A DNA stretch of 64,000 bases from IMG/VR virus record IMGVR_UViG_3300031578_004185, positions 3,779 through 67,778 of that record. One strand, 5' to 3'. Below, in pieces: positions 1 through 6,013 of this stretch (position 1 is the stretch's first letter; each line of letters opens with the position of its first letter). The translations under genes and the position numbers were made by a program. The notes below the pieces were generated by a model, which ran no database searches, was not told the origin of the DNA, and saw only the letters and a program-made list of their open reading frames with translations. The stretch comes from a virus.

Positions 1-1561
1 GACGGACGACTCTGGTGTCGTCGGTATCCGTAATACCCAAGGCAAACTCTGCATATCCTTCGACCCCGCCGACCTGCTAGAATTTCTCCGTTACTCTTCC
101 AAGAAAACAGTGCGGGTTTTCTGGGATCTTGATGCATCTATCGCGTCAGTCCTTAAAACCCTCTCAAAATCGGTTCTGGTGCGTCTGGTGGCGTTTGACG
201 ACGACCTTTCGGTGTCGGGGCACCAGCTCTACTACCTGCCCGACCGGATGTTCCGTGTTGGCCGTTCTCGTTACTACTCTATTAGACAATTCTGGCCAAC
301 CTCTGAGCCGACTCCTGGAACCCTTGAAGAAGTCCAAGCTAAGGCAGACGAACTAGCCGAGACTCTCACCGATTGCGGCATGGGCGACTTCACCCGCTTG
401 GTATCCCCCATATCCGTGTTCGAGGAGACCGAGCTGGGGCAACAGACCTATAACTCTATTCCTAAGGGCTACGAGATACCGCCGTCCTGCTTCGAGTGCT
501 TGGAATATGCGTCCAAGTGTGATAAACGAGAGTGGGTATCAGCATACCAGCTCGGTCATTGGGTAGGGGGCGAGATCTGGGACTACGACGTGAACTCGAT
601 GTACCCTTCCGTAGCATCCAACTTGTTCAATTTACACGAGATGGAGATGTGGAAGTCGGACAAGTTCGGGTCCCGAGAGCAGGGTGCTTACTACGGTTTC
701 CTGCGAGGACGCCTCTACCTTGACCCGTCCTCACCGACTATTCACTGCTCCCCTATTATTGCTGATCTTGAGCGGCTCCCCGGCAACCCCGCCGGAGACT
801 TCGGGGACGACTACCCTCTCACTCTGGACGAACTTCGCCTTATCCAGCGCAACGGCTGGGGGGAGTTCCGTATGAAAGACGGCTGGTTCTTGAAACCTTA
901 CGCTGGTGTCCGCCCTACCAGACCCTTCAAGGAGATTATGGATCATCTCTACCAACAACGCTATAAGTCCGAGCTGGTTAGTTCTATTATAAAGGGTGTC
1001 GCTAATCAGCTAATCGGGAAACTCATTGAGACCCGCGTAGATGGTGATTATGGTAAGTTGAGAAACGATATTTACCACGCTTTAATATTGTCCCAGGCGA
1101 GAGTAAAAGTAGCCGAGTTCCTACTCAATAACGATGTCCAGAAGGACGAGCTGGTAGCCGTGCAGACTGATGGTGTCCGTATGACCAAGTTCGTTCCGGT
1201 GAAGGGCAACGGTATGGGGAGTTGGCGGTGTAATGGAAGCCAAAGCACAATTGTCGCTTCGCCTTACCGAGTTTTCTGTGGTGACAAGAAGCCTGGTCAT
1301 TTGACTCATGATATGCTTGTGTCGATGATACAGGAACATCCTCTCTCAAAATACTATGGAACAAACGTCAAGCATCGTTTAACTTTGCGCCAAGCACTTC
1401 AGATAGGAGATATAGCGTTAGTTGGTACAATTGATAACTTACCTGCACATATTGATTTACTGGCGCTCACTCGCGAGCAAAACAGGAACTTTTCTCGTTT
1501 CCCCCAAACTGGCTCAAGTCTACTTAGCAACCAGTACCAATCCACCCCAATAATTCTTTAG
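1..1561 (+). CDS. Divergent family B DNA polymerase (protein-primed-like), 5' partial
   Basis: Motif A DYDVNSMYPS, motif B KGVANQLIGK, motif C VQTDGV; the frame is open from base 2, so the start lies upstream of the window. Confidence 0.75.
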   Translation, partial: TDDSGVVGIRNTQGKLCISFDPADLLEFLRYSSKKTVRVFWDLDASIASVLKTLSKSVLVRLVAFDDDLSVSGHQLYYLPDRMFRVGRSRYYSIRQFWPTSEPTPGTLEEVQAKADELAETLTDCGMGDFTRLVSPISVFEETELGQQTYNSIPKGYEIPPSCFECLEYASKCDKREWVSAYQLGHWVGGEIWDYDVNSMYPSVASNLFNLHEMEMWKSDKFGSREQGAYYGFLRGRLYLDPSSPTIHCSPIIADLERLPGNPAGDFGDDYPLTLDELRLIQRNGWGEFRMKDGWFLKPYAGVRPTRPFKEIMDHLYQQRYKSELVSSIIKGVANQLIGKLIETRVDGDYGKLRNDIYHALILSQARVKVAEFLLNNDVQKDELVAVQTDGVRMTKFVPVKGNGMGSWRCNGSQSTIVASPYRVFCGDKKPGHLTHDMLVSMIQEHPLSKYYGTNVKHRLTLRQALQIGDIALVGTIDNLPAHIDLLALTREQNRNFSRFPQTGSSLLSNQYQSTPIIL

Positions 1562-1580
1562 AAAAATCTTTGGTTACCCC

Positions 1581-1609
1581 TTGACAAATGTTCAGTAGTA
1601 TGCTATGCT
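1581..1609 (+). promoter_or_regulatory. sigma70-type promoter with extended -10
   Basis: TTGACA(1581-86), 17 nt, TATGCT(1604-09), TG at 1601-02. Confidence 0.85.
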
Positions 1610-1615
1610 ATTTGT

Positions 1616-1783
1616 ATGGACATTAAAGAGGTTCGCAAGCAGTTGGGAATGACTTCTCAGGACTTGGCTGTAGTTCTCGGTGTATCTGTTGCTACTGTGA
1701 GTCGCTGGGAGACCGGGAAGCACAAGCCTTCCAAGTTGGCTCTGTTGCGTCTGAAGGAGTTGATCGACAAAATGAAAACTTGA
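1616..1783 (+). CDS. XRE/Cro-like HTH regulator (55 aa, probably leaderless)
   Basis: Manual translation MDIKEVRKQLGMTSQDLAVVLGVSVATVSRWETGKHKPSKLALLRL; ATG 7 nt after the -10 box, no SD. Confidence 0.9.
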   Translation: MDIKEVRKQLGMTSQDLAVVLGVSVATVSRWETGKHKPSKLALLRLKELIDKMKT

Positions 1784-1862
1784 TGGTTGCCGTGACTTGA
1801 TTTCGTGTGGCTTGAGGTTCCTTGTATTCAATCGGTTTTTATTAAGCTAAATTAAGCAAAAA
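1778..1862 (+). ncRNA. Candidate guide RNA 1: 5-nt-periodic array (KTG-like trimer + variable NN)
   Basis: TTG cc GTG ac TTG at TTC gt GTG gc TTG ag GTT cc TTG ta TTC aa TCG gt TTT ta TTA ag CTA aa TTA ag; pyrimidine at the trimer centre in 14/14 units; leader ACTTGATGGTTG and trailer TTAAGCTA..AGCAAAA shared with array 2. Confidence 0.65.
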
Positions 1863-1879
1863 GTAGAAGGAGGCATTTT

Positions 1880-2497
1880 ATGCCAACAGCAATACCAGTA
1901 TATTTTTGGGAAGCCGAAGTCGAGGTTGAAACAAATGACTTAGCCTTTTCTCCACAGACTAATACCGAAGGTCGAGGGGCATTGGCGAAGCGGATATTCA
2001 CAGCAGACTGGCTCCACGATGGTCAGGTCTGGTTCAGTCCGTCCAAGAGGCTAGGAGGGTGGCTGAAGTCGCAGTTGCCACTGGCTAGGTCAACCTATGC
2101 TAACCAGATGGCTGCGGTCAAGGTCTTCCCCGCAGATGGTGATGGGGAGTATGTCCTTATTGCCGAAGTGAGCGAGTTGGTTGGAGGCAATAATCCTCTA
2201 CCTATGGCTCATGTGCTACCGAAGGGGTTGTCGTGTCCTTACTGGACATATATTAACGTCCCACAGGAGCGTGGGACTGGGACGAGGGTTGCCCCAACTT
2301 ATTGGTATGAGTTGCATAAACCCGTTGTCCACCGAGTCCGCATCCTGAGCTTTGCTAGGGGCATTAGCCCTGAGATTGTGAAAGAGGCCCTGAGCAAGCT
2401 GGGCAGAGCTACCGGGATTGGCGATAAACATAGTGTTGGGAAGGGCAGATTCAAGTTGGTGAAGTTTGAATATAAGCAAGAGAAATTGGCACTTTAG
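1880..2497 (+). CDS. Solitary RAMP-superfamily protein (Cas7/Csm3-like)
   Basis: C-terminal glycine-rich loop LGRATGIGDKHSVGKGRFKL typical of RAMPs, N-terminal beta strand, 205 aa, strong SD AGGAGG; no other cas genes recognised. Confidence 0.75.
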   Translation: MPTAIPVYFWEAEVEVETNDLAFSPQTNTEGRGALAKRIFTADWLHDGQVWFSPSKRLGGWLKSQLPLARSTYANQMAAVKVFPADGDGEYVLIAEVSELVGGNNPLPMAHVLPKGLSCPYWTYINVPQERGTGTRVAPTYWYELHKPVVHRVRILSFARGISPEIVKEALSKLGRATGIGDKHSVGKGRFKLVKFEYKQEKLAL

Positions 2498-2507
2498 GAT
2501 ACTTGAG

Positions 2508-2587
2508 ACTTGATGGTTGAGTGTGGTACGCAGTTCAGTGTCGCGTGTCTCCTTGGATTGTACTGGGTTGTGTTAAGCTAAGCAAAA
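2508..2587 (+). ncRNA. Candidate guide RNA 2: 5-nt-periodic array
   Basis: Same 12-nt leader ACTTGATGGTTG (2508-19); GTG gt ACG ca GTT ca GTG tc GCG tg TCT cc TTG ga TTG ta CTG gg TTG tg TTA ag CTA ag CAAAA; central pyrimidine 12/12. Confidence 0.55.
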
Positions 2588-2604
2588 TATTACCGAGGTT
2601 GGAA

Positions 2605-3030
2605 ATGACGGAAAACGAGATAAACGAGAAGGTCAAAGAGTGGTTGACTAGCCAAGGGTACGTCTATAAGGGTGTCCTAAATGCCAAGCCTAAAGAGGGT
2701 GCTAATCCGAATGGCTATGGTCAAGTAGCAGTCCCCGACGGAACTAGGGATGTTCTTATTGACCATACCGGACACAAAGATAGACCTGTTGACCTTATTT
2801 GGATAGAAGCTAAAGGTTCAGGCATCGGATTGTCTATGCTCCTTCAGGGGTTCGCCAGAGTTGGCTACGCCGTTTATCATGGGGGCGGGCGAGGGTTACT
2901 TGCCTGTCCTGCTACCGAGTTTGATACGATGTTCGCCCAAAGGGATTTTCTGAAGGCTATCGGAGTCGCCAGTGAGAGGTCTTTGGGACTGCTGGATGGA
3001 GAGTCCGGGAGAGTTGAGTGGCTGACCTAA
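2605..3030 (+). CDS. PD-(D/E)XK restriction-endonuclease-like protein
   Basis: DVLIDH...LIWIEAKG catalytic pattern; probable start ATG 2605 after GAGG. Confidence 0.6.
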   Translation: MTENEINEKVKEWLTSQGYVYKGVLNAKPKEGANPNGYGQVAVPDGTRDVLIDHTGHKDRPVDLIWIEAKGSGIGLSMLLQGFARVGYAVYHGGGRGLLACPATEFDTMFAQRDFLKAIGVASERSLGLLDGESGRVEWLT

Positions 3031-3037
3031 GCAACTT

Positions 3038-3226
3038 ATGGGAGTTACACTGAGACAGGCGATCCAGCAGGGGGACGTCAGCAAAGTGGGGGAGCTGGAC
3101 GATCTACCTGCTCACTTGGATCTGATAGGGATTACTAGGGAGCAGAACAGGTACTTCCCGAAGCTCCCTAAGACAGGTAGGGCGTTGCTGAACGGGAGGT
3201 ACCAGTCGAAGGCAGTAGTCCTCTAG
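3038..3226 (+). pseudogene. Orphan C-terminal fragment of the polB-like gene (second allele)
   Basis: TLRQAIQQGDVSKVGELDDLPAHLDLIGITREQNRYFPKLPKTG aligns with TLRQALQIGDIALVGTIDNLPAHIDLLALTREQNRNFSRFPQTG at the end of 1..1561. Confidence 0.85.
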
Positions 3227-3231
3227 GGGTA

Positions 3232-3260
3232 TTGACAAACACTAAAGCCTGTGATAAGGT
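3232..3260 (+). promoter_or_regulatory. sigma70-type promoter
   Basis: TTGACA, 17 nt, TAAGGT with TG extension. Confidence 0.7.
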
Positions 3261-3270
3261 GGTAGGTAGC

Positions 3271-3450
3271 ATGAGAGCAGACGATATCCGAAGAATAAGG
3301 CTCAGTTTGAGTATGTCCCAGCAGCGATTCGCCGAGAGGCTGGGGGTCAGCATTACCACCGTGAACAGATGGGAGCGTGGTCGCTCTAACCCCTCTCCTC
3401 TTGCTCTGACACGGTTGCGAAGGATGCAGCGGAAGGTGGTGGTGGAATGA
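3271..3450 (+). CDS. XRE/Cro-like HTH regulator (paralog of 1616..1783)
   Basis: MRADDIRRIRLSLSMSQQRFAERLGVSITTVNRWERGRSNPSPLAL. Confidence 0.9.
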   Translation: MRADDIRRIRLSLSMSQQRFAERLGVSITTVNRWERGRSNPSPLALTRLRRMQRKVVVE

Positions 3451-4079
3451 CCAATCCTGTATCAATCAGCCCCAGTTCGTTCTCGGATTCCTTTCTGCTA
3501 AAGCGGTCTATGGAGTACGAGATCCCCGCGGACACCGAGAGGCGTTCCAAGTTCTCGGTATCCGGTTTCCCCACAAAGTTACTTAACGCTGTCAACTATA
3601 CTATTCCCAAGAGATTGGATGGCAAGTGGCGGAAGAGCATCGCCAACACGGAGCGGTTCCTGTTGAGCATCGGCATTCCTTTGCTGGACAAGGCGACCGA
3701 GAAGTGTTCTATCTTTAGAGAACTGATGGCAGAGGCTGTTGACACGGATGATGACGTCAAGCAAAACTACCTCCGCTCAATGCGCTTCCTCTATTCGGTT
3801 GATGACATGCGGATTACCGGTGGGAGAGAGATAAACCAAGGGGGTACGCAAGTGCAGTGCCTTGAGAGGGATGTTCAAGCTGTGAAGGAAGTACAGGTGC
3901 GGTTGGGGATGACGGGAGTAACGCAATCGGCACTGGTTGTCCTTTCTCTGGTATGGACACTGTCCACTGACAACGATAACCAGGTAGTGTCTATACCGAT
4001 ACAGAAGATATGCCATCGGGTGGTGACACAGTTCCGTGAGAAGGTAACCCTTTGGGAAGCGGAGTTGCGTCGCGGGTAG
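3447..4079 (+). CDS. Hypothetical protein (210 aa)
   Basis: ORF coupled to the HTH gene by ATGA overlap. Confidence 0.7.
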   Translation: MTNPVSISPSSFSDSFLLKRSMEYEIPADTERRSKFSVSGFPTKLLNAVNYTIPKRLDGKWRKSIANTERFLLSIGIPLLDKATEKCSIFRELMAEAVDTDDDVKQNYLRSMRFLYSVDDMRITGGREINQGGTQVQCLERDVQAVKEVQVRLGMTGVTQSALVVLSLVWTLSTDNDNQVVSIPIQKICHRVVTQFREKVTLWEAELRRG

Positions 4080-4102
4080 CAACAATGCTCTACTGCGCTA
4101 GT

Positions 4103-4174
4103 GCACTAATACACTATTACACTAACACACTATTACACTACTATACTATTGCACTACTATACTATTGCACTATT
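4103..4174. repeat. Nine tandem 8-bp repeats (RYACTANT), iteron-like
   Basis: gcactaat acactatt acactaac acactatt acactact atactatt gcactact atactatt gcactatt. Confidence 0.9.
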
Positions 4175-4183
4175 AAATAGTCT

Positions 4184-4251
4184 CGCGTGCGCGCGCGTAC
4201 GCGCGTGGGGGTCCCGGGGAGGGGGTAAGGGGGTGTGGGGGGAAGGGGGGG
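4184..4251. other. 24-nt purine/pyrimidine alternation followed by G-tracts (Z-DNA/G-quadruplex potential)
   Basis: cgcgtgcgcgcgcgtacgcgcgtg, then six runs of 4-7 G. Confidence 0.75.
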
Positions 4252-4319
4252 TTTTGTAGACTATTGGGAACACCGACCGATTATTTACCAACAACTCGAA
4301 AAATAATCCCTTTGCCCTA

Positions 4320-4348
4320 TTGACAAACATAGAAATCTGTGGTAATAT
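4320..4348 (+). promoter_or_regulatory. sigma70-type promoter
   Basis: TTGACA, 17 nt, TAATAT with TG extension. Confidence 0.8.
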
Positions 4349-4399
4349 TATAGCGTTCATAGTTTGTGCGAAACTTTAATAGCGGAGGTCATAGTTTAG

Positions 4400-4750
4400 G
4401 TGGAATTGAATATCAGTCAAAGGCAAATGGCTTGGAATGCGATAAACCTAGCGAAGAGGGAGTTAGCCAAGGGGGACTACGATTCGGTCCGCTCCGCGAA
4501 CTATATGCTCCGTGATCTGGATGCCACGAGAGAAGCGGGCTTATCGGGTTTGGCTTGGGCGATACATAAAGGCACCGCCCATAAAAACGATGTTCTAGGA
4601 CTGATAGAGTACCTTGAAGATTATTTGCTGCTTTTGACTGATACCGAGAGAGAAACTGTAGGATATGCTTTTATCACGGAGTACAAAGAGGAGCTGAATG
4701 CCTTTCTGTTACGGCAGGTACGCAAGGTTAGGGAGCATTTTGGTGGGTAA
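4400..4750 (+). CDS. Hypothetical protein
   Basis: 116-aa ORF, SD GGAGG, GTG start. Confidence 0.65.
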   Translation: MELNISQRQMAWNAINLAKRELAKGDYDSVRSANYMLRDLDATREAGLSGLAWAIHKGTAHKNDVLGLIEYLEDYLLLLTDTERETVGYAFITEYKEELNAFLLRQVRKVREHFGG

Positions 4751-4774
4751 AGTGACTGTTCTAGGAGGTTAAAA

Positions 4775-5257
4775 ATGCTGATAGATAAAGTAAAGGAGAT
4801 ACTGGGCGATCTGGAGTACACTGAGTACAATGAGTCAGGGAATAAGTTTATTGATGCTGCCCTTGATATAAAGCAAGTCAATGAAACTGCCAAACAAATC
4901 TGCCAGCTCTCTCCCAAATCCCCTGATAATCCAGAGGGGTACGAGGGTAGGTTGCTGACGGATGATGGGGAATTGAGGAGAAGGATTAGTAGGGTGCTAC
5001 ACAAGGCTATCAGGCAATTTGAAATTGAAGAATACCCCGAAGCATTCGACTTAAGTGTGCATATTGACCAAATCATAGCCAATACCCAAGCAAACTACAG
5101 GGAAAGGATAGAGGGGATACTGCAGATTTTCACAGATTGGGACAAATGGTCAGTTGAAGAAGGCGGTGAGAAGAAGTTCCAAAAGAAGTATGGCAGGGAT
5201 ACAGCCAGCATTTTAGACGTGGTAGAGCAAGCTCTCAAGGAGGAATTAAATGGATAA
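4775..5257 (+). CDS. Hypothetical protein
   Basis: 160-aa acidic ORF, SD AGGAGG. Confidence 0.7.
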   Translation: MLIDKVKEILGDLEYTEYNESGNKFIDAALDIKQVNETAKQICQLSPKSPDNPEGYEGRLLTDDGELRRRISRVLHKAIRQFEIEEYPEAFDLSVHIDQIIANTQANYRERIEGILQIFTDWDKWSVEEGGEKKFQKKYGRDTASILDVVEQALKEELNG

Positions 5258-5561
5258 AGAAGCAGTAGAGAAGATAGCAAAGAGTATGTTTCAGTTGGTA
5301 TTTTTGGTAGATGACAAAGAGATTGAGCAGCGCTGGGAGCATCTCCAGTTAAGTGTTAAGAGGCAGTGGAGCGATAAAGCAGAGAACCTAATTGAAGTTT
5401 TTGAGGAATTCGGCTACCGCAAACCAACTGAACCACCATTATTGAGTGATGAGGAGATAGATGAAGTTGCACGGGCAGAGAGTCGTCTTACTTGGCTACA
5501 ATATGGGCGTGATATAGCCCAAGCCCAGTTCCAACTCTGTAAAAAGCACTATGAAGGATAA
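5250..5561 (+). CDS. Hypothetical protein
   Basis: 103-aa ORF, SD GGAGG, overlaps upstream stop. Confidence 0.7.
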   Translation: MDKEAVEKIAKSMFQLVFLVDDKEIEQRWEHLQLSVKRQWSDKAENLIEVFEEFGYRKPTEPPLLSDEEIDEVARAESRLTWLQYGRDIAQAQFQLCKKHYEG

Positions 5562-5967
5562 GGAGGAAGATATGTTTAAGGAATTCAGTAAGAGAGTAAA
5601 GAAGGCTTTCTATCCCAAGAAACCCCCGACAAACTGGATGGCTTATAGCCGGGTAGCTTTTACGTGGTTGGTAGTAGGGTTCTGTAGTGGGTTACTGCTG
5701 ATAGTTATAGGGATAGTTCTTGTCGCAGAGGGTGGTGTTAAGCCAGTGGTCTGGTTCGTTGTTGGAGTTCTAGGTTTCATAACCCTCTACTGGGCTTGGA
5801 TAGCTCTCGATGATGCAAAGAAGGACGGACTGTTTGCGTTGTTAGGTGGCAGAGCCCGGGAATTGTGGTTGAGGAGAAGTGAGAAGCTAGGCATAAAAGG
5901 ATTACAAGAGGCTTTAGATAATTTTAACAAGAAAGGAGATGGCAAAGGAGGTGATAGGTTGAAATAG
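5551..5967 (+). CDS. Membrane protein (2 TM)
   Basis: Two hydrophobic stretches. Confidence 0.65.
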   Translation: MKDKEEDMFKEFSKRVKKAFYPKKPPTNWMAYSRVAFTWLVVGFCSGLLLIVIGIVLVAEGGVKPVVWFVVGVLGFITLYWAWIALDDAKKDGLFALLGGRARELWLRRSEKLGIKGLQEALDNFNKKGDGKGGDRLK

Positions 5968-6013
5968 TCTATTGGTATTTTAGGCAGACTTTAATAAACG
6001 AAAGGAGAAGAAA

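What the first reader, a model, noticed from the sequence alone, without database searches (positions are those of the whole stretch)
1230..3450. Cassette replaced the polB 3' end: possible RNA-guided homing or marker exclusion
Seen: the unit [polB C-terminal 60 aa - TTGACA promoter - XRE HTH] occurs twice (about 1380-1783 and 3038-3450) around the RAMP cassette, and the two protein tails are only about half identical. GC counted in 60-nt windows: 361-420 58%, 1141-1200 57%, 1321-1380 40%, 1381-1440 38%, 3061-3120 60%. The orphan tail therefore matches the 5' part of polB, while the current 3' end looks foreign, with the shift beginning near the predicted target site. Knowledge: free-standing phage homing endonucleases cut a neighbouring gene in relatives and co-convert a resistant allele. 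Inference: the cassette arrived with a resistant polB 3' end and may spread by guided cutting of cassette-free alleles.
Basis: partly seen in the sequence, partly recalled or inferred. Interest (0 to 1): 0.75.

Follow-up and report, generated by a model that had tools for sequence, protein, structure and literature searches.

The report
VIPR cassette that targets neighbouring polB
A phage carries a small RNA-guided "VIPR" cassette right after its DNA polymerase gene; the cassette's guide RNA matches that gene perfectly in related phages that have no cassette at this position, but not the phage's own copy, whose 3' end is foreign, so the cassette looks like an RNA-guided counterpart of a homing endonuclease.

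Summary
The unit [polB tail, TTGACA promoter, XRE HTH] occurs twice: the tails are 55% identical and the HTH proteins 48%.

Between the copies lies a VIPR system, a kind first described in 2026 preprints. It has:
- a 205-aa RAMP (Cas7-like fold);
- a 141-aa PD-(D/E)xK nuclease-fold accessory protein;
- two guide-like RNAs made of 11 NNUUG pentamers each.

Read by the published one-base-skip rule, guide 1 spells the codons PTIVASPYKVY. It matches 22/22 in polB of five close relatives with no cassette on their contigs, 21/22 and 20/22 in two more, and only 15/22 in the resident polB. Shuffled controls reach 18 at most.

The resident polB turns foreign at the first target codon: identity to its nearest relative falls from 90% to 67%, and GC3 from 62% to 39%. 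The orphan tail has resident composition (GC3 71%) and matches the relatives' tails.

Two other contigs with a cassette after polB show the same targeting logic. One also shows the break in polB.

Cutting by the nuclease, and hence true homing, is inferred rather than shown. No relative shows polB joined to HTH2. The target of guide 2 is unknown.

The parts
2..1243 (+). polB, resident 5' part (residues 11-424 of the 529-aa protein; the gene starts 29 nt before the window).
   Evidence: It is 80% identical to P0004 overall and 54/60 over residues 365-424. The body tree places it as sister to P0004, 99/92. GC3 is 62%.
878..907 (-). Site in the resident polB (DGWFLKPYAG) that matches guide 1 of a sibling cassette (contig L058) at 19/20.
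   Evidence: The same guide matches 20/20 in L055 and L006.
1244..1275 (+). Mismatched ('resistant') version of the guide 1 target: STIVASPYRVF in place of PTIVASPYKVY.
   Evidence: It matches 15/22 here against 22/22 in five relatives with no cassette on their contigs. Three dinucleotides are fully changed: CCn to AGC, Ser AGY to TCG (synonymous), and AAG to CGA. The last dinucleotide differs at one base (TA to TT, Tyr to Phe).
1244..1561 (+). polB 3' end of foreign origin (residues 425-529).
   Evidence: It is 67% identical to P0004, while P0004, P0005 and P0006 stay 73-97% alike here. GC3 is 39%. The tree places it as sister to P0010, 98/94, and with P0013 and P0020, 99/93.
1581..1609 (+). 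Cassette promoter: TTGACA, 17 nt, TATGCT, with TG before the -10.
   Evidence: From about 1577 onward the sequence is about 90% identical to the sibling cassette in L058.
1616..1783 (+). XRE-type HTH gene of the cassette (HTH1, 55 aa).
   Evidence: Pfam HTH_3, E 3e-13. It travels with the cassette: 94% identity in L058, 74% in L046, and 62-67% in L047, L051-L054 and L040.
1781..1850 (+). vrRNA1. The 5' handle TGATGGTTG (1781-1789) overlaps the HTH1 stop codon. Eleven pentamers follow (1790-1844), with variable dinucleotides CC AC AT GT GC AG CC TA AA GT TA. The 3' motif is TTAAGCTAA.
   Evidence: The period-5 TG signal has z = 16, and this is one of the two strongest such arrays in the 64 kb. 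The handles are conserved in all cassette copies. It matches polB of relatives 22/22.
1880..2497 (+). vipr: 205-aa (22.8 kDa) RAMP protein with a G-rich loop, GIGDKHSVGKGRF.
   Evidence: AF2 pLDDT 90.6. All 50 listed Foldseek hits (59 at E<1e-3) are Cas7-family RAMPs; the best is 7zol_B at 5e-6. VIA Z is 7.9 to type VII Cas7, Csm3 and Cmr4. There is a PADLOC Csm4 hit on the G-loop at E 3e-5. Forty homologues are known, none with a Pfam match.
2511..2581 (+). vrRNA2. Same handle and 3' motif as vrRNA1, with 11 pentamers (2521-2575) carrying GT GT CA CA TC TG CC GA TA GG TG.
   Evidence: No target was found.
2605..3030 (+). vap: 141-aa accessory protein with a PD-(D/E)xK (restriction-endonuclease-like, XisH-like) fold.
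   Evidence: AF2 pLDDT 94.6. Foldseek finds XisH 2inb at 2e-4. VIA gives Z 10.5 to 2okf_B, then PaqCI, NucS, FokI and Can2 nuclease domains. D53, E68 and K70 are conserved across 37 homologues.
3031..3042 (.). Right junction between the cassette and resident DNA.
   Evidence: The vap stop codon ends at 3030. Homology to relatives' polB resumes at 3043. The third vrRNA that follows vap in L058, L048 and L053 is missing here.
3038..3226 (+). Orphan polB tail, equivalent to residues about 468-529 of the displaced resident allele. It is still an open 62-codon frame.
   Evidence: It is 47/62 identical to the P0004 tail, visibly close at the DNA level to the L055 polB 3' end (about 85% by eye over its first ~90 nt, not computed), and has GC3 71%.
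3232..3450 (+). Resident TTGACA promoter region and HTH2 (ATG at 3271), translationally coupled to ORF210 (3447-4079).
   Evidence: Pfam HTH_3, E 2.8e-13. The promoter resembles the one at 4318-4345 (repeat D5). GC3 is 63%. ORF210 homologues elsewhere follow a small HTH-like gene but not polB.

Best explanation
Window 1577-3030 is a VIPR (Viral Interference Programmable Repeat) cassette. It consists of a promoter, an XRE regulator, vrRNA1, the RAMP gene vipr, vrRNA2, and a PD-(D/E)xK nuclease-fold accessory gene (vap).

Shown:
- Each vrRNA is an array of 11 pentamers with two hypervariable and three conserved bases (consensus NNUUG).
- Read with the published one-base-skip rule, vrRNA1 specifies CCnACnATnGTnGCnAGnCCnTAnAAnGTnTA. 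These are the codons PTIVASPYKVY of polB, with the skipped base at the wobble position.
- That site is perfect in the closest polB relatives that have no cassette on their contigs.
- The site is mismatched in the resident polB, whose sequence becomes foreign at that very codon.
- The displaced resident tail survives as an orphan downstream of the cassette.

Inferred:
- In mixed infections the Vipr-vrRNA1 filament binds polB of sibling phages that lack the cassette.
- The Vap nuclease then cuts there, or at the least the gene is silenced.
- Genomes survive if they repair from, or recombine with, the cassette carrier. That copies in the resistant polB 3' end together with the cassette. This is the logic of a free-standing homing endonuclease and of marker exclusion.
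- In this genome the left exchange was homologous, in the nearly invariant stretch just before residue 425. The right join was illegitimate, just after the vap stop. It deleted resident residues 425 to about 469 and left the orphan tail.
- Tight linkage of weapon and resistant allele is what keeps the carrier from targeting itself.
For: - Fold of Vipr and Vap. Catalytic D...ExK is conserved.
- Pentamer arrays: TG autocorrelation has z = 16, 13 and 16 at lags 5, 10 and 15. The logo has 0.01 bits at positions 1-2 and 0.39, 1.03 and 0.47 bits at positions 3-5 over 235 pentamers. These are the two strongest such arrays in the window. The handles occur nowhere else in the window.
- Published rule and definition of VIPR: bioRxiv 10.64898/2026.04.26.720920.
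- Target: 22/22 in L055, L004, L006, L007 and L036; 21/22 in L005; 20/22 in L008; 15/22 in the resident copy. Only the 1-nt skip gives hits. 300 order-permuted controls reach at most 18.
- No self-target above 64% with 10-11 dinucleotides in a whole-window scan.
- Mosaic at the target. GC3. Trees. Orphan tail affinity.
- Independent replicate in L040: vrRNA1 matches 22/22 on the minus strand of polB in L024, L019, L011 and L017, but 16/22 in its own polB. L040 identity to those relatives drops from 85-100% to 60-75% after the site.
- Independent replicate in L058: polB is followed by HTH1 (94%), vipr (89%) and vap (79%). Its vrRNA1 matches 20/20 in L055 and L006.
- The cassette occurs as a unit in unrelated contexts, so it is mobile.
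Against: - No cleavage, RNA expression or binding has been shown. Published phage-borne VIPRs act by silencing, and the preprint says nucleases were seen only in the host-defence types.
- The orphan tail shows the right junction was not a homologous repair, so this was not textbook homing.
- The guide has to lie where the linked allele differs from its targets. The coincidence of breakpoint and target is therefore partly forced.
- The foreign polB 3' end (GC3 39%) differs in composition from the cassette (51-59%). It is only about 60% identical to the L058 3' end, while the cassette itself is about 90% identical. The two may not have come from one donor.
- The AU test on the 3' segment gives p = 0.11.
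- L058's own site matches its guide 17/20, above the 80% cut-off the preprint uses for calling targets.
- L006 has an orphan polB tail with no VIPR nearby, so orphan tails also arise without this cassette.
- The 'cassette-free' contigs are short. A cassette elsewhere in those genomes cannot be excluded.
Confidence: 0.6

Rival explanations
1. Silencing weapon with linked immunity, and no cutting. Vipr-vrRNA1 only represses polB of competing sibling phages, as the published phage VIPRs do. Vap has another role. The cassette sits beside polB because recombinants that separate the weapon from the mismatched allele would silence themselves. The mosaic and the orphan tail come from ordinary recombination followed by selection.
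For: Published type II VIPRs act by transcriptional repression and gave a 1e5-fold drop in plaquing by targeting an essential gene. All the targeting evidence fits equally well. The illegitimate right junction is not what clean double-strand-break repair homing would leave.
Against: Vap has a confidently predicted nuclease fold with conserved D...ExK in 37 homologues, and it always accompanies vipr. The polB mosaic starts at the first target codon in the window and just after the target in L040. That is what a conversion tract starting at a break predicts.
Confidence: 0.3
2. Ordinary mosaicism at a hypervariable flank. The polB 3' end is a general recombination hotspot, the cassette is just one more accessory-gene insert, and its guide has nothing to do with how it got there.
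For: Nearly every lineage has a different gene right after polB: DUF2284, HNH, HD, a methyltransferase, DUF1848. L006 has an orphan polB tail fragment next to a DUF1848 gene with no VIPR.
Against: A 22/22 in-frame match of the adjacent guide to exactly this gene in five relatives, against a maximum of 18 in 300 controls, cannot be incidental. The same guide-to-neighbouring-polB relation recurs in L040 and L058 with different guides and sites.
Confidence: 0.07
3. Local tandem duplication of [polB tail, promoter, HTH] within this genome, followed by divergence and later insertion of the cassette between the copies.
For: The two copies are collinear and in the same orientation.
Against: GC3 is 39% in one tail and 71% in the other. 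The two tails have different nearest relatives. HTH1 is 94% identical to the HTH of the L058 cassette but only 48% to HTH2. The foreign tract starts inside polB at residue 425, upstream of the duplicated part.
Confidence: 0.03

Closest known systems
VIPR systems (Vipr RAMP + vap + vrRNA), bioRxiv 10.64898/2026.04.26.720920, 10.64898/2026.04.26.720927 and 10.64898/2026.10.15.759431
   Same: - A phage-borne two-gene core: a RAMP of about 20 kDa plus an accessory gene.
- No CRISPR array.
- Intergenic RNAs of 9-16 pentanucleotide repeats, each with 3 conserved and 2 hypervariable bases, and a conserved 3' end.
- Targets are read with a one-base skip that falls on codon wobble positions, on either strand.
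- Targets lie in competing phages, and there is no self-target.
   Different: - The repeat consensus is NNUUG rather than YNNGG. The preprint mentions NNNGG, YNNNG and NNNNG variants only in passing.
- An XRE HTH gene and a promoter travel with the cassette.
- Vap is a PD-(D/E)xK (XisH-like) nuclease fold in a phage. The preprint reports nucleases only for the defence-island types III and V.
- The target is the gene next door (polB) in sibling phages, with a linked mismatched allele, a mosaic breakpoint at the target, and an orphan gene end.
- The three preprints do not use the words 'homing' or 'polymerase' in their main text. The type (I-VII) could not be assigned because their sequences are not held.
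Free-standing homing endonucleases of T-even phages and marker exclusion (SegG, MobE and similar; from general knowledge)
   Same: - A nuclease gene sits beside its target gene.
- The target is intact in relatives that lack the element and altered in the carrier.
- Flanking sequence is co-converted from the cut site.
- The element spreads in mixed infections.
   Different: Here specificity would come from an RNA guide read by a RAMP filament, not from the nuclease protein. Cleavage is unproven, and one junction is illegitimate.
Class 1 CRISPR-Cas effectors (Cas7/Csm3/Cmr4 backbone)
   Same: The Vipr fold matches Cas7-family RAMPs. It has a G-rich loop, and an RNA-guided filament is expected.
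   Different: There is no CRISPR array, no Cas1/Cas2, Cas5, Cas6, Cas10 or Cas3, a 5-nt rather than 6-nt periodicity, and a non-contiguous guide.
XisH (fdxN element excision factor; PDB 2inb, 2okf)
   Same: It is the best structural match of Vap: Z 10.5, rmsd 2.8 over 113 residues.
   Different: Sequence identity is 17-19%. There is no XisI partner and no link to cyanobacterial excision elements. Only the fold and the D...ExK motif are shared.

Membership tests
VIPR system | A small single-RRM RAMP protein (about 20 kDa) with a G-loop. | tested here: met
   205 aa, 22.8 kDa. AF2 pLDDT is 90.6. Foldseek and VIA best hits are Cas7-family RAMPs. The G-loop matches Csm4 HMMs.
VIPR system | Sequence or phylogenetic relatedness to published Vipr proteins and assignment to a type (I-VII). 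| tested here: inconclusive
   The published sequences are not held. tblastn of Vipr against 50,697 phage records found nothing at E<=1.
VIPR system | Intergenic RNAs of 9-16 tandem pentamers with 3 conserved and 2 hypervariable positions, flanking vipr. | tested here: met
   Two arrays of 11 pentamers lie at 1790-1844 and 2521-2575. Lag-5 z = 16. Logo information is 0.01 bits at positions 1-2 and 0.39-1.03 bits at positions 3-5. The consensus is NNUUG, not YNNGG.
VIPR system | A conserved 3' tail after the repeat tract. | tested here: inconclusive
   The 3' motif TTAAGCTAA(G/A)CAAA and the 5' handle TGATGGTTG are conserved in all copies. Secondary structure was not tested, and there is no Rfam match.
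VIPR system | Natural targets found with the 1-nt skip rule at >=80% NN match, in coding sequence, with the skip at the wobble position. | tested here: met
   vrRNA1 matches 22/22 in five polB genes, in frame. Skips of 0, 2 and 3 give nothing above background.
VIPR system | No self-target at >=80%. | tested here: met
   Best matches in the window are 14/22 (64%) for guide 1 and 14/20 (70%) for guide 2, scanned with 10-11 dinucleotides. The site in the resident polB itself is 15/22.
VIPR system | An adjacent accessory (vap) gene with a DNA-related function. | tested here: met
   A PD-(D/E)xK-fold gene lies directly downstream in every copy.
VIPR system | vrRNAs are expressed and bound by Vipr. 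| not testable with these tools
   This needs small-RNA sequencing and a pull-down.
Free-standing homing endonuclease / marker exclusion | The target site is intact in element-free alleles and altered in the linked allele. | tested here: met
   22/22 against 15/22. The same holds in L040 (22/22 against 16/22).
Free-standing homing endonuclease / marker exclusion | A co-conversion tract starts at the cut site. | tested here: met
   Identity to P0004 is 90% in residues 365-424 and 67% from residue 425, the first target codon. L040 shows a similar drop after its target.
Free-standing homing endonuclease / marker exclusion | Site-specific DNA cleavage by the encoded nuclease. | not testable with these tools
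   Only the fold and the conserved D...ExK motif are known.
Free-standing homing endonuclease / marker exclusion | Insertion by homologous repair on both sides, with no duplication. | tested here: not met
   The orphan tail and the 12-nt junction right after the vap stop show an illegitimate right join.
CRISPR-Cas | A CRISPR array plus adaptation or other effector cas genes. | tested here: not met
   There is no repeat-spacer array in 1-4500, no Rfam CRISPR repeat, and only one RAMP gene. Pfam, NCBIfam and PADLOC name no other cas gene.

The most novel reading that the evidence does not exclude
This is an RNA-guided homing element, a selfish VIPR cassette. It cuts the polymerase gene of sibling phages at a site chosen by a gapped, wobble-blind guide. 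It then spreads by being copied in together with a resistant polB end. Repeated rounds of this would drive the mosaic, fast-evolving 3' end of polB and the pile-up of different genes behind it. This would be the first natural case of homing whose specificity is carried by a reprogrammable RNA rather than by the nuclease protein.
Probability: 0.4. Interest if true: 0.9.

Novelty: new variant of a known kind. Interest (0 to 1): 0.8.

Why it matters
VIPR systems were described only in 2026, as RNA-guided silencers used in conflicts between phages. This locus adds three things.

1. It defines a clade with a different repeat code (NNUUG) and a nuclease-fold partner inside phages.
2. Its natural target is an essential replication gene of sibling phages.
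3. It leaves a genomic footprint showing that the weapon and a resistant allele of its target move together: a foreign gene end starting at the target, an orphan native end, and three separate contigs in which a cassette behind polB aims at polB.

If the cutting step holds, these cassettes are natural RNA-programmed gene drives among phages. They would explain why the polB 3' end and its flank are so mosaic. They would also offer a compact guided nuclease: a 205-aa protein, a 141-aa protein, and an RNA of about 70 nt.

The prediction is directly testable with two short synthetic targets that differ at four codons.

Tried and rejected
- Contiguous complementarity between the intergenic units and polB (own, orphan or relatives) by local alignment: nothing beyond shuffles. 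The one 17/18 hit lies at an unrelated polB position in L005. The signal appears only under the gapped rule.
- Other registers and skips (0, 2, 3 nt) for both guides: background only.
- Target of vrRNA2: nothing at 80% or more in the window or the 57 loci. There is no exact match in IMG/VR or in GTDB genomes.
- Exact vrRNA1 pattern in IMG/VR and in GTDB genomes: no match. The close polB relatives are all metagenome contigs.
- Close relatives of polB or Vipr in IMG/VR by protein: none or one distant. blastn of window 1-6000 against phage records: none.
- Pfam, PHROGs and NCBIfam gave no family for Vipr, Vap, ORF210 or the orphan tail. A profile search of PDB sequences with the Vipr family found only noise.
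- Rfam over 1200-4500: no match.
- Vipr-Vap complex prediction: no verdict, score 0.00. This is not evidence either way.
- A cassette-free relative with polB, orphan-type tail, HTH2 and ORF210 in that order was sought through ORF210 homologues. The best contig has no DNA on hand and shows no polB-sized gene upstream. L056 has ORF210 after a small HTH-like gene and no polB.
- Other period-5 arrays in the window on either strand: none with the handles.

Full report
**Setting.** The window is bases 3779-67778 of a 68,001-nt IMG/VR virus record. Its first gene is the end of a 529-aa protein (P0001; L002:3750-5336). This protein has weak but consistent family-B DNA polymerase signatures: Pfam DNA_pol_B_2 at E 0.006 and a PHROG 'DNA polymerase' family at E 6e-7. 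A DNA methyltransferase-like gene precedes it.

**Observation.**
- The duplication is real. polB residues 470-529 (window 1379-1558) and a free-standing 62-codon ORF (3038-3226) are 55% identical, E 2e-27.
- Each is followed by TTGACA and a small XRE HTH gene. The two HTH proteins are 48% identical.
- Raw GC is only mildly unusual. Third-position GC separates the pieces clearly:

| Segment | GC3 |
|---|---|
| polB 2-1246 | 62% |
| polB 1247-1561 | 39% |
| Orphan tail | 71% |
| HTH2 | 63% |
| ORF210 | 65% |
| vipr | 54% |
| vap | 51% |

**What lies between the copies.**
- ORF205 (1880-2497) has 40 homologues of about 205 aa and no Pfam family. Folded with that alignment (pLDDT 90.6), all 50 listed Foldseek matches (59 at E<1e-3) are Cas7-type RAMPs: Cas7-11, Csm3, Cmr4 and type VII Cas7. 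VIA-align agrees, with Z 7.9. Its C-terminal GIGDKHSVGKGRF motif hits Csm4 models.
- ORF141 (2605-3030) has 45 homologues. They share D53, E68-x-K70 and W66. Its model (pLDDT 94.6) is a restriction-endonuclease-like fold, closest to XisH. Foldseek gives 2e-4, and VIA gives Z 10.5 followed by PaqCI, NucS, FokI and Can2 nuclease domains.
- The trio HTH-205-141 recurs as a unit on unrelated contigs. It lies between structural genes in L046 and L047. It lies upstream of distant polB homologues in L053/L054, and in L048-50 without the HTH. It lies downstream of polB in L040 and L058.

**The intergenic units.**
- Windows 1781-1850 and 2511-2581 both begin with TGATGGTTG and end with TTAAGCTAA. These exact words occur nowhere else in the 64 kb. 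The same ends flank the intergenic stretches of every cassette copy, while the interiors differ.
- The interiors have a strict 5-nt period. TG autocorrelation gives z = 16, 13 and 16 at lags 5, 10 and 15. These are the two strongest such arrays in the window.
- Over 235 pentamers, positions 1-2 carry 0.01 bits. Positions 3-5 are T, T, G.
- There is no Rfam match.

**Identification.**
- A literature search found the 2026 preprint that describes VIPR systems. These are phage-borne loci with a minimal RAMP (Vipr, about 20 kDa), an accessory gene (vap), and vrRNAs.
- A vrRNA has 9-16 pentamers. In each, three conserved bases alternate with a hypervariable NN. The usual unit is YNNGG, with NNNGG, YNNNG and NNNNG variants.
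- The NN pairs read DNA with one skipped base, normally the codon wobble position, on either strand.
- Targets are called at >=80% NN match, and no self-targets are seen.
- Some types have nuclease or helicase vaps.
- The cassette here fits every testable feature. It differs in having an NNUUG consensus.

**The decisive test.**
- The eleven NN pairs of vrRNA1 give CCnACnATnGTnGCnAGnCCnTAnAAnGTnTA.
- I scanned 336 kb of fetched loci plus the window with four skip lengths and five registers. Only register 0 with skip 1 stood out.
- Match counts:

| Sequence | Match |
|---|---|
| polB of L055, L004, L006, L007, L036 | 22/22 |
| polB of L005 | 21/22 |
| polB of L008 | 20/22 |
| Best of 300 order-permuted controls | 18/22 |

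- The match is in frame and spells PTIVASPYKVY. The five targets differ from one another at the skipped wobble bases.
- These five are the nearest polB relatives. On their contigs they carry other genes, not the cassette, after polB.
- The resident polB reads STIVASPYRVF at 1244-1275 and matches only 15/22. Three dinucleotides are changed at both bases: Pro CCn to Ser AGC, a synonymous serine switch from AGY to TCG, and Lys AAG to Arg CGA. The last dinucleotide differs at one base (TA to TT, Tyr to Phe).
- Nothing in the window reaches 80% for either guide.

**Mosaic structure.**
- Against the nearest relative, P0004, residues 365-424 are 54/60 identical and residues 425-529 are 70/105 identical. 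P0004, P0005 and P0006 remain 73-97% alike over that stretch. So the switch falls at the first target codon.
- The crossover itself could lie anywhere in the nearly invariant residues 414-424.
- In trees, the body is sister to P0004 (99/92) and the 3' segment is sister to P0010 (98/94), grouped with P0013 and P0020 (99/93). The AU test on the 103-residue segment does not reject the alternative (p = 0.11).
- The orphan tail is 47/62 identical to the P0004 tail, against 41/62 for the current tail. It aligns to the L055 polB 3' end from window 3043, visibly close at the DNA level (about 85% by eye over the first ~90 nt, not computed).
- The incoming piece therefore runs from about 1244 to 3030. 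It replaced resident residues 425 to about 469 and left the rest of the resident tail behind.
- The right junction lies within 12 nt of the vap stop. It lacks the third vrRNA that follows vap in L058, L048 and L053. The right join was therefore illegitimate.

**Replication in other contigs.**
- L040 carries polB-HTH-vipr on a different polB lineage. Its vrRNA1 matches 22/22 on the minus strand of polB (QDKKPQHYTH) in its nearest relatives L024, L019, L011 and L017, with wobble skips again. It matches 16/22 in its own polB (GDKRPQHYTH). L040's identity to those relatives falls from 85-100% to 60-75% after that site, while the relatives stay 83-97% alike.
- L058 is P0010's contig. polB is followed by HTH1 (94%), vipr (89%), vap (79%) and three vrRNAs. 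Its vrRNA1 matches 20/20 in L055 and L006, and 19/20 in this window at 878-907 on the minus strand. It matches 17/20 in its own polB.
- L052's first guide hits a gene next to the VIPR cassette of L053/L054.
- So cassettes of this clade that sit behind polB aim at polB of siblings, each at a different site.

**Mechanism.**
- Shown: the parts list, the code, the target, the mismatched linked allele, and the foreign 3' end with the orphan native end.
- Inferred: Vipr polymerises on vrRNA1, binds the sensitive polB site of a co-infecting sibling, and Vap cuts there. Repair or recombination with the carrier then copies in the resistant end and the cassette. This is the logic of free-standing homing endonucleases and marker exclusion in T-even phages.
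- The main rival is silencing without cutting. In that case the weapon and the resistant allele stay linked simply because separating them would make the weapon target its own genome.
Three VIPR preprints were found; word searches of the main text of the discovery and competition papers found neither 'homing' nor 'polymerase', and only the outline and abstract of the structural paper were read.

**Weak points.**
- Nothing has been assayed.
- The guide must lie where the alleles differ, so its position at the breakpoint is partly forced.
- The polB 3' piece and the cassette differ in GC3. Compared with L058 they also diverge very unequally, about 60% against about 90% nucleotide identity. They may have different histories.
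- No relative shows polB followed by HTH2 and ORF210.
- L006 shows that orphan polB tails also arise next to non-VIPR inserts.
- The vrRNA2 target is unknown.
- The relatives' contigs are short, so 'cassette-free' means only that no cassette lies on the contig.

**Verdict.** The locus is a new variant of the recently described VIPR kind, with a previously unreported homing-like relation to its target.

Noticed in passing
window 878-907 (minus strand): The resident polB is itself a 19/20 match to guide 1 of the sibling cassette in L058. This phage would therefore be a predicted target of a related VIPR carrier.
   Followed up: partly
L006:1696-2483: Another polB relative has a DUF1848 gene inserted right after polB. 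It is followed by an orphan polB tail fragment (FPATGRGLLNGKYQSEAVVL) and has no VIPR genes nearby. The polB 3' flank differs in almost every lineage (DUF2284, HNH, HD, methyltransferase).
   Followed up: partly
L052:253-324 versus L053:4747-4775 and L054:2259-2290: The first guide of one VIPR cassette matches 18/18 (in overlapping windows) a 194-aa gene lying just upstream of another phage's VIPR cassette. VIPR carriers appear to target each other.
   Followed up: no
window 4082-4260: About ten tandem 8-nt units (CTAnTnCA type, 4082-4183) are followed by a GC palindrome (CGCGTGCGCGCGCGTACGCG, 4184-4203) and a long G-rich run. The region lies between ORF210 and the next TTGACA promoter (4320). 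It could be a regulatory or replication-related site.
   Followed up: no
window 3230-3257 and 4318-4345: Two resident promoters share a 28-nt motif, TATTGACAAAC...CTGTG.TAA (79% identical). This suggests a common operator, perhaps for HTH2.
   Followed up: no
L006:1-1668 (protein P0007): This polB homologue carries an insertion of about 55 aa, rich in Cys and His, just before the DxxSxYPS-like motif. It is absent from the other relatives.
   Followed up: no
L002:3750-5336 (polB) and relatives P0004-P0049: The 'polB' family of about 530 aa is below the Pfam threshold for DNA_pol_B_2 (16 bits against a cut-off of 25.8) and has no NCBIfam match. It is an uncharacterised, divergent polymerase-like family known only from metagenomes.
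   Followed up: partly
L046:6622-6824 and L052:974-1239: Some cassette copies carry two pentamer arrays in tandem between vipr and vap. L048, L053 and L058 carry a further array after vap. The number of guides therefore varies from 2 to 4 per cassette.
   Followed up: partly
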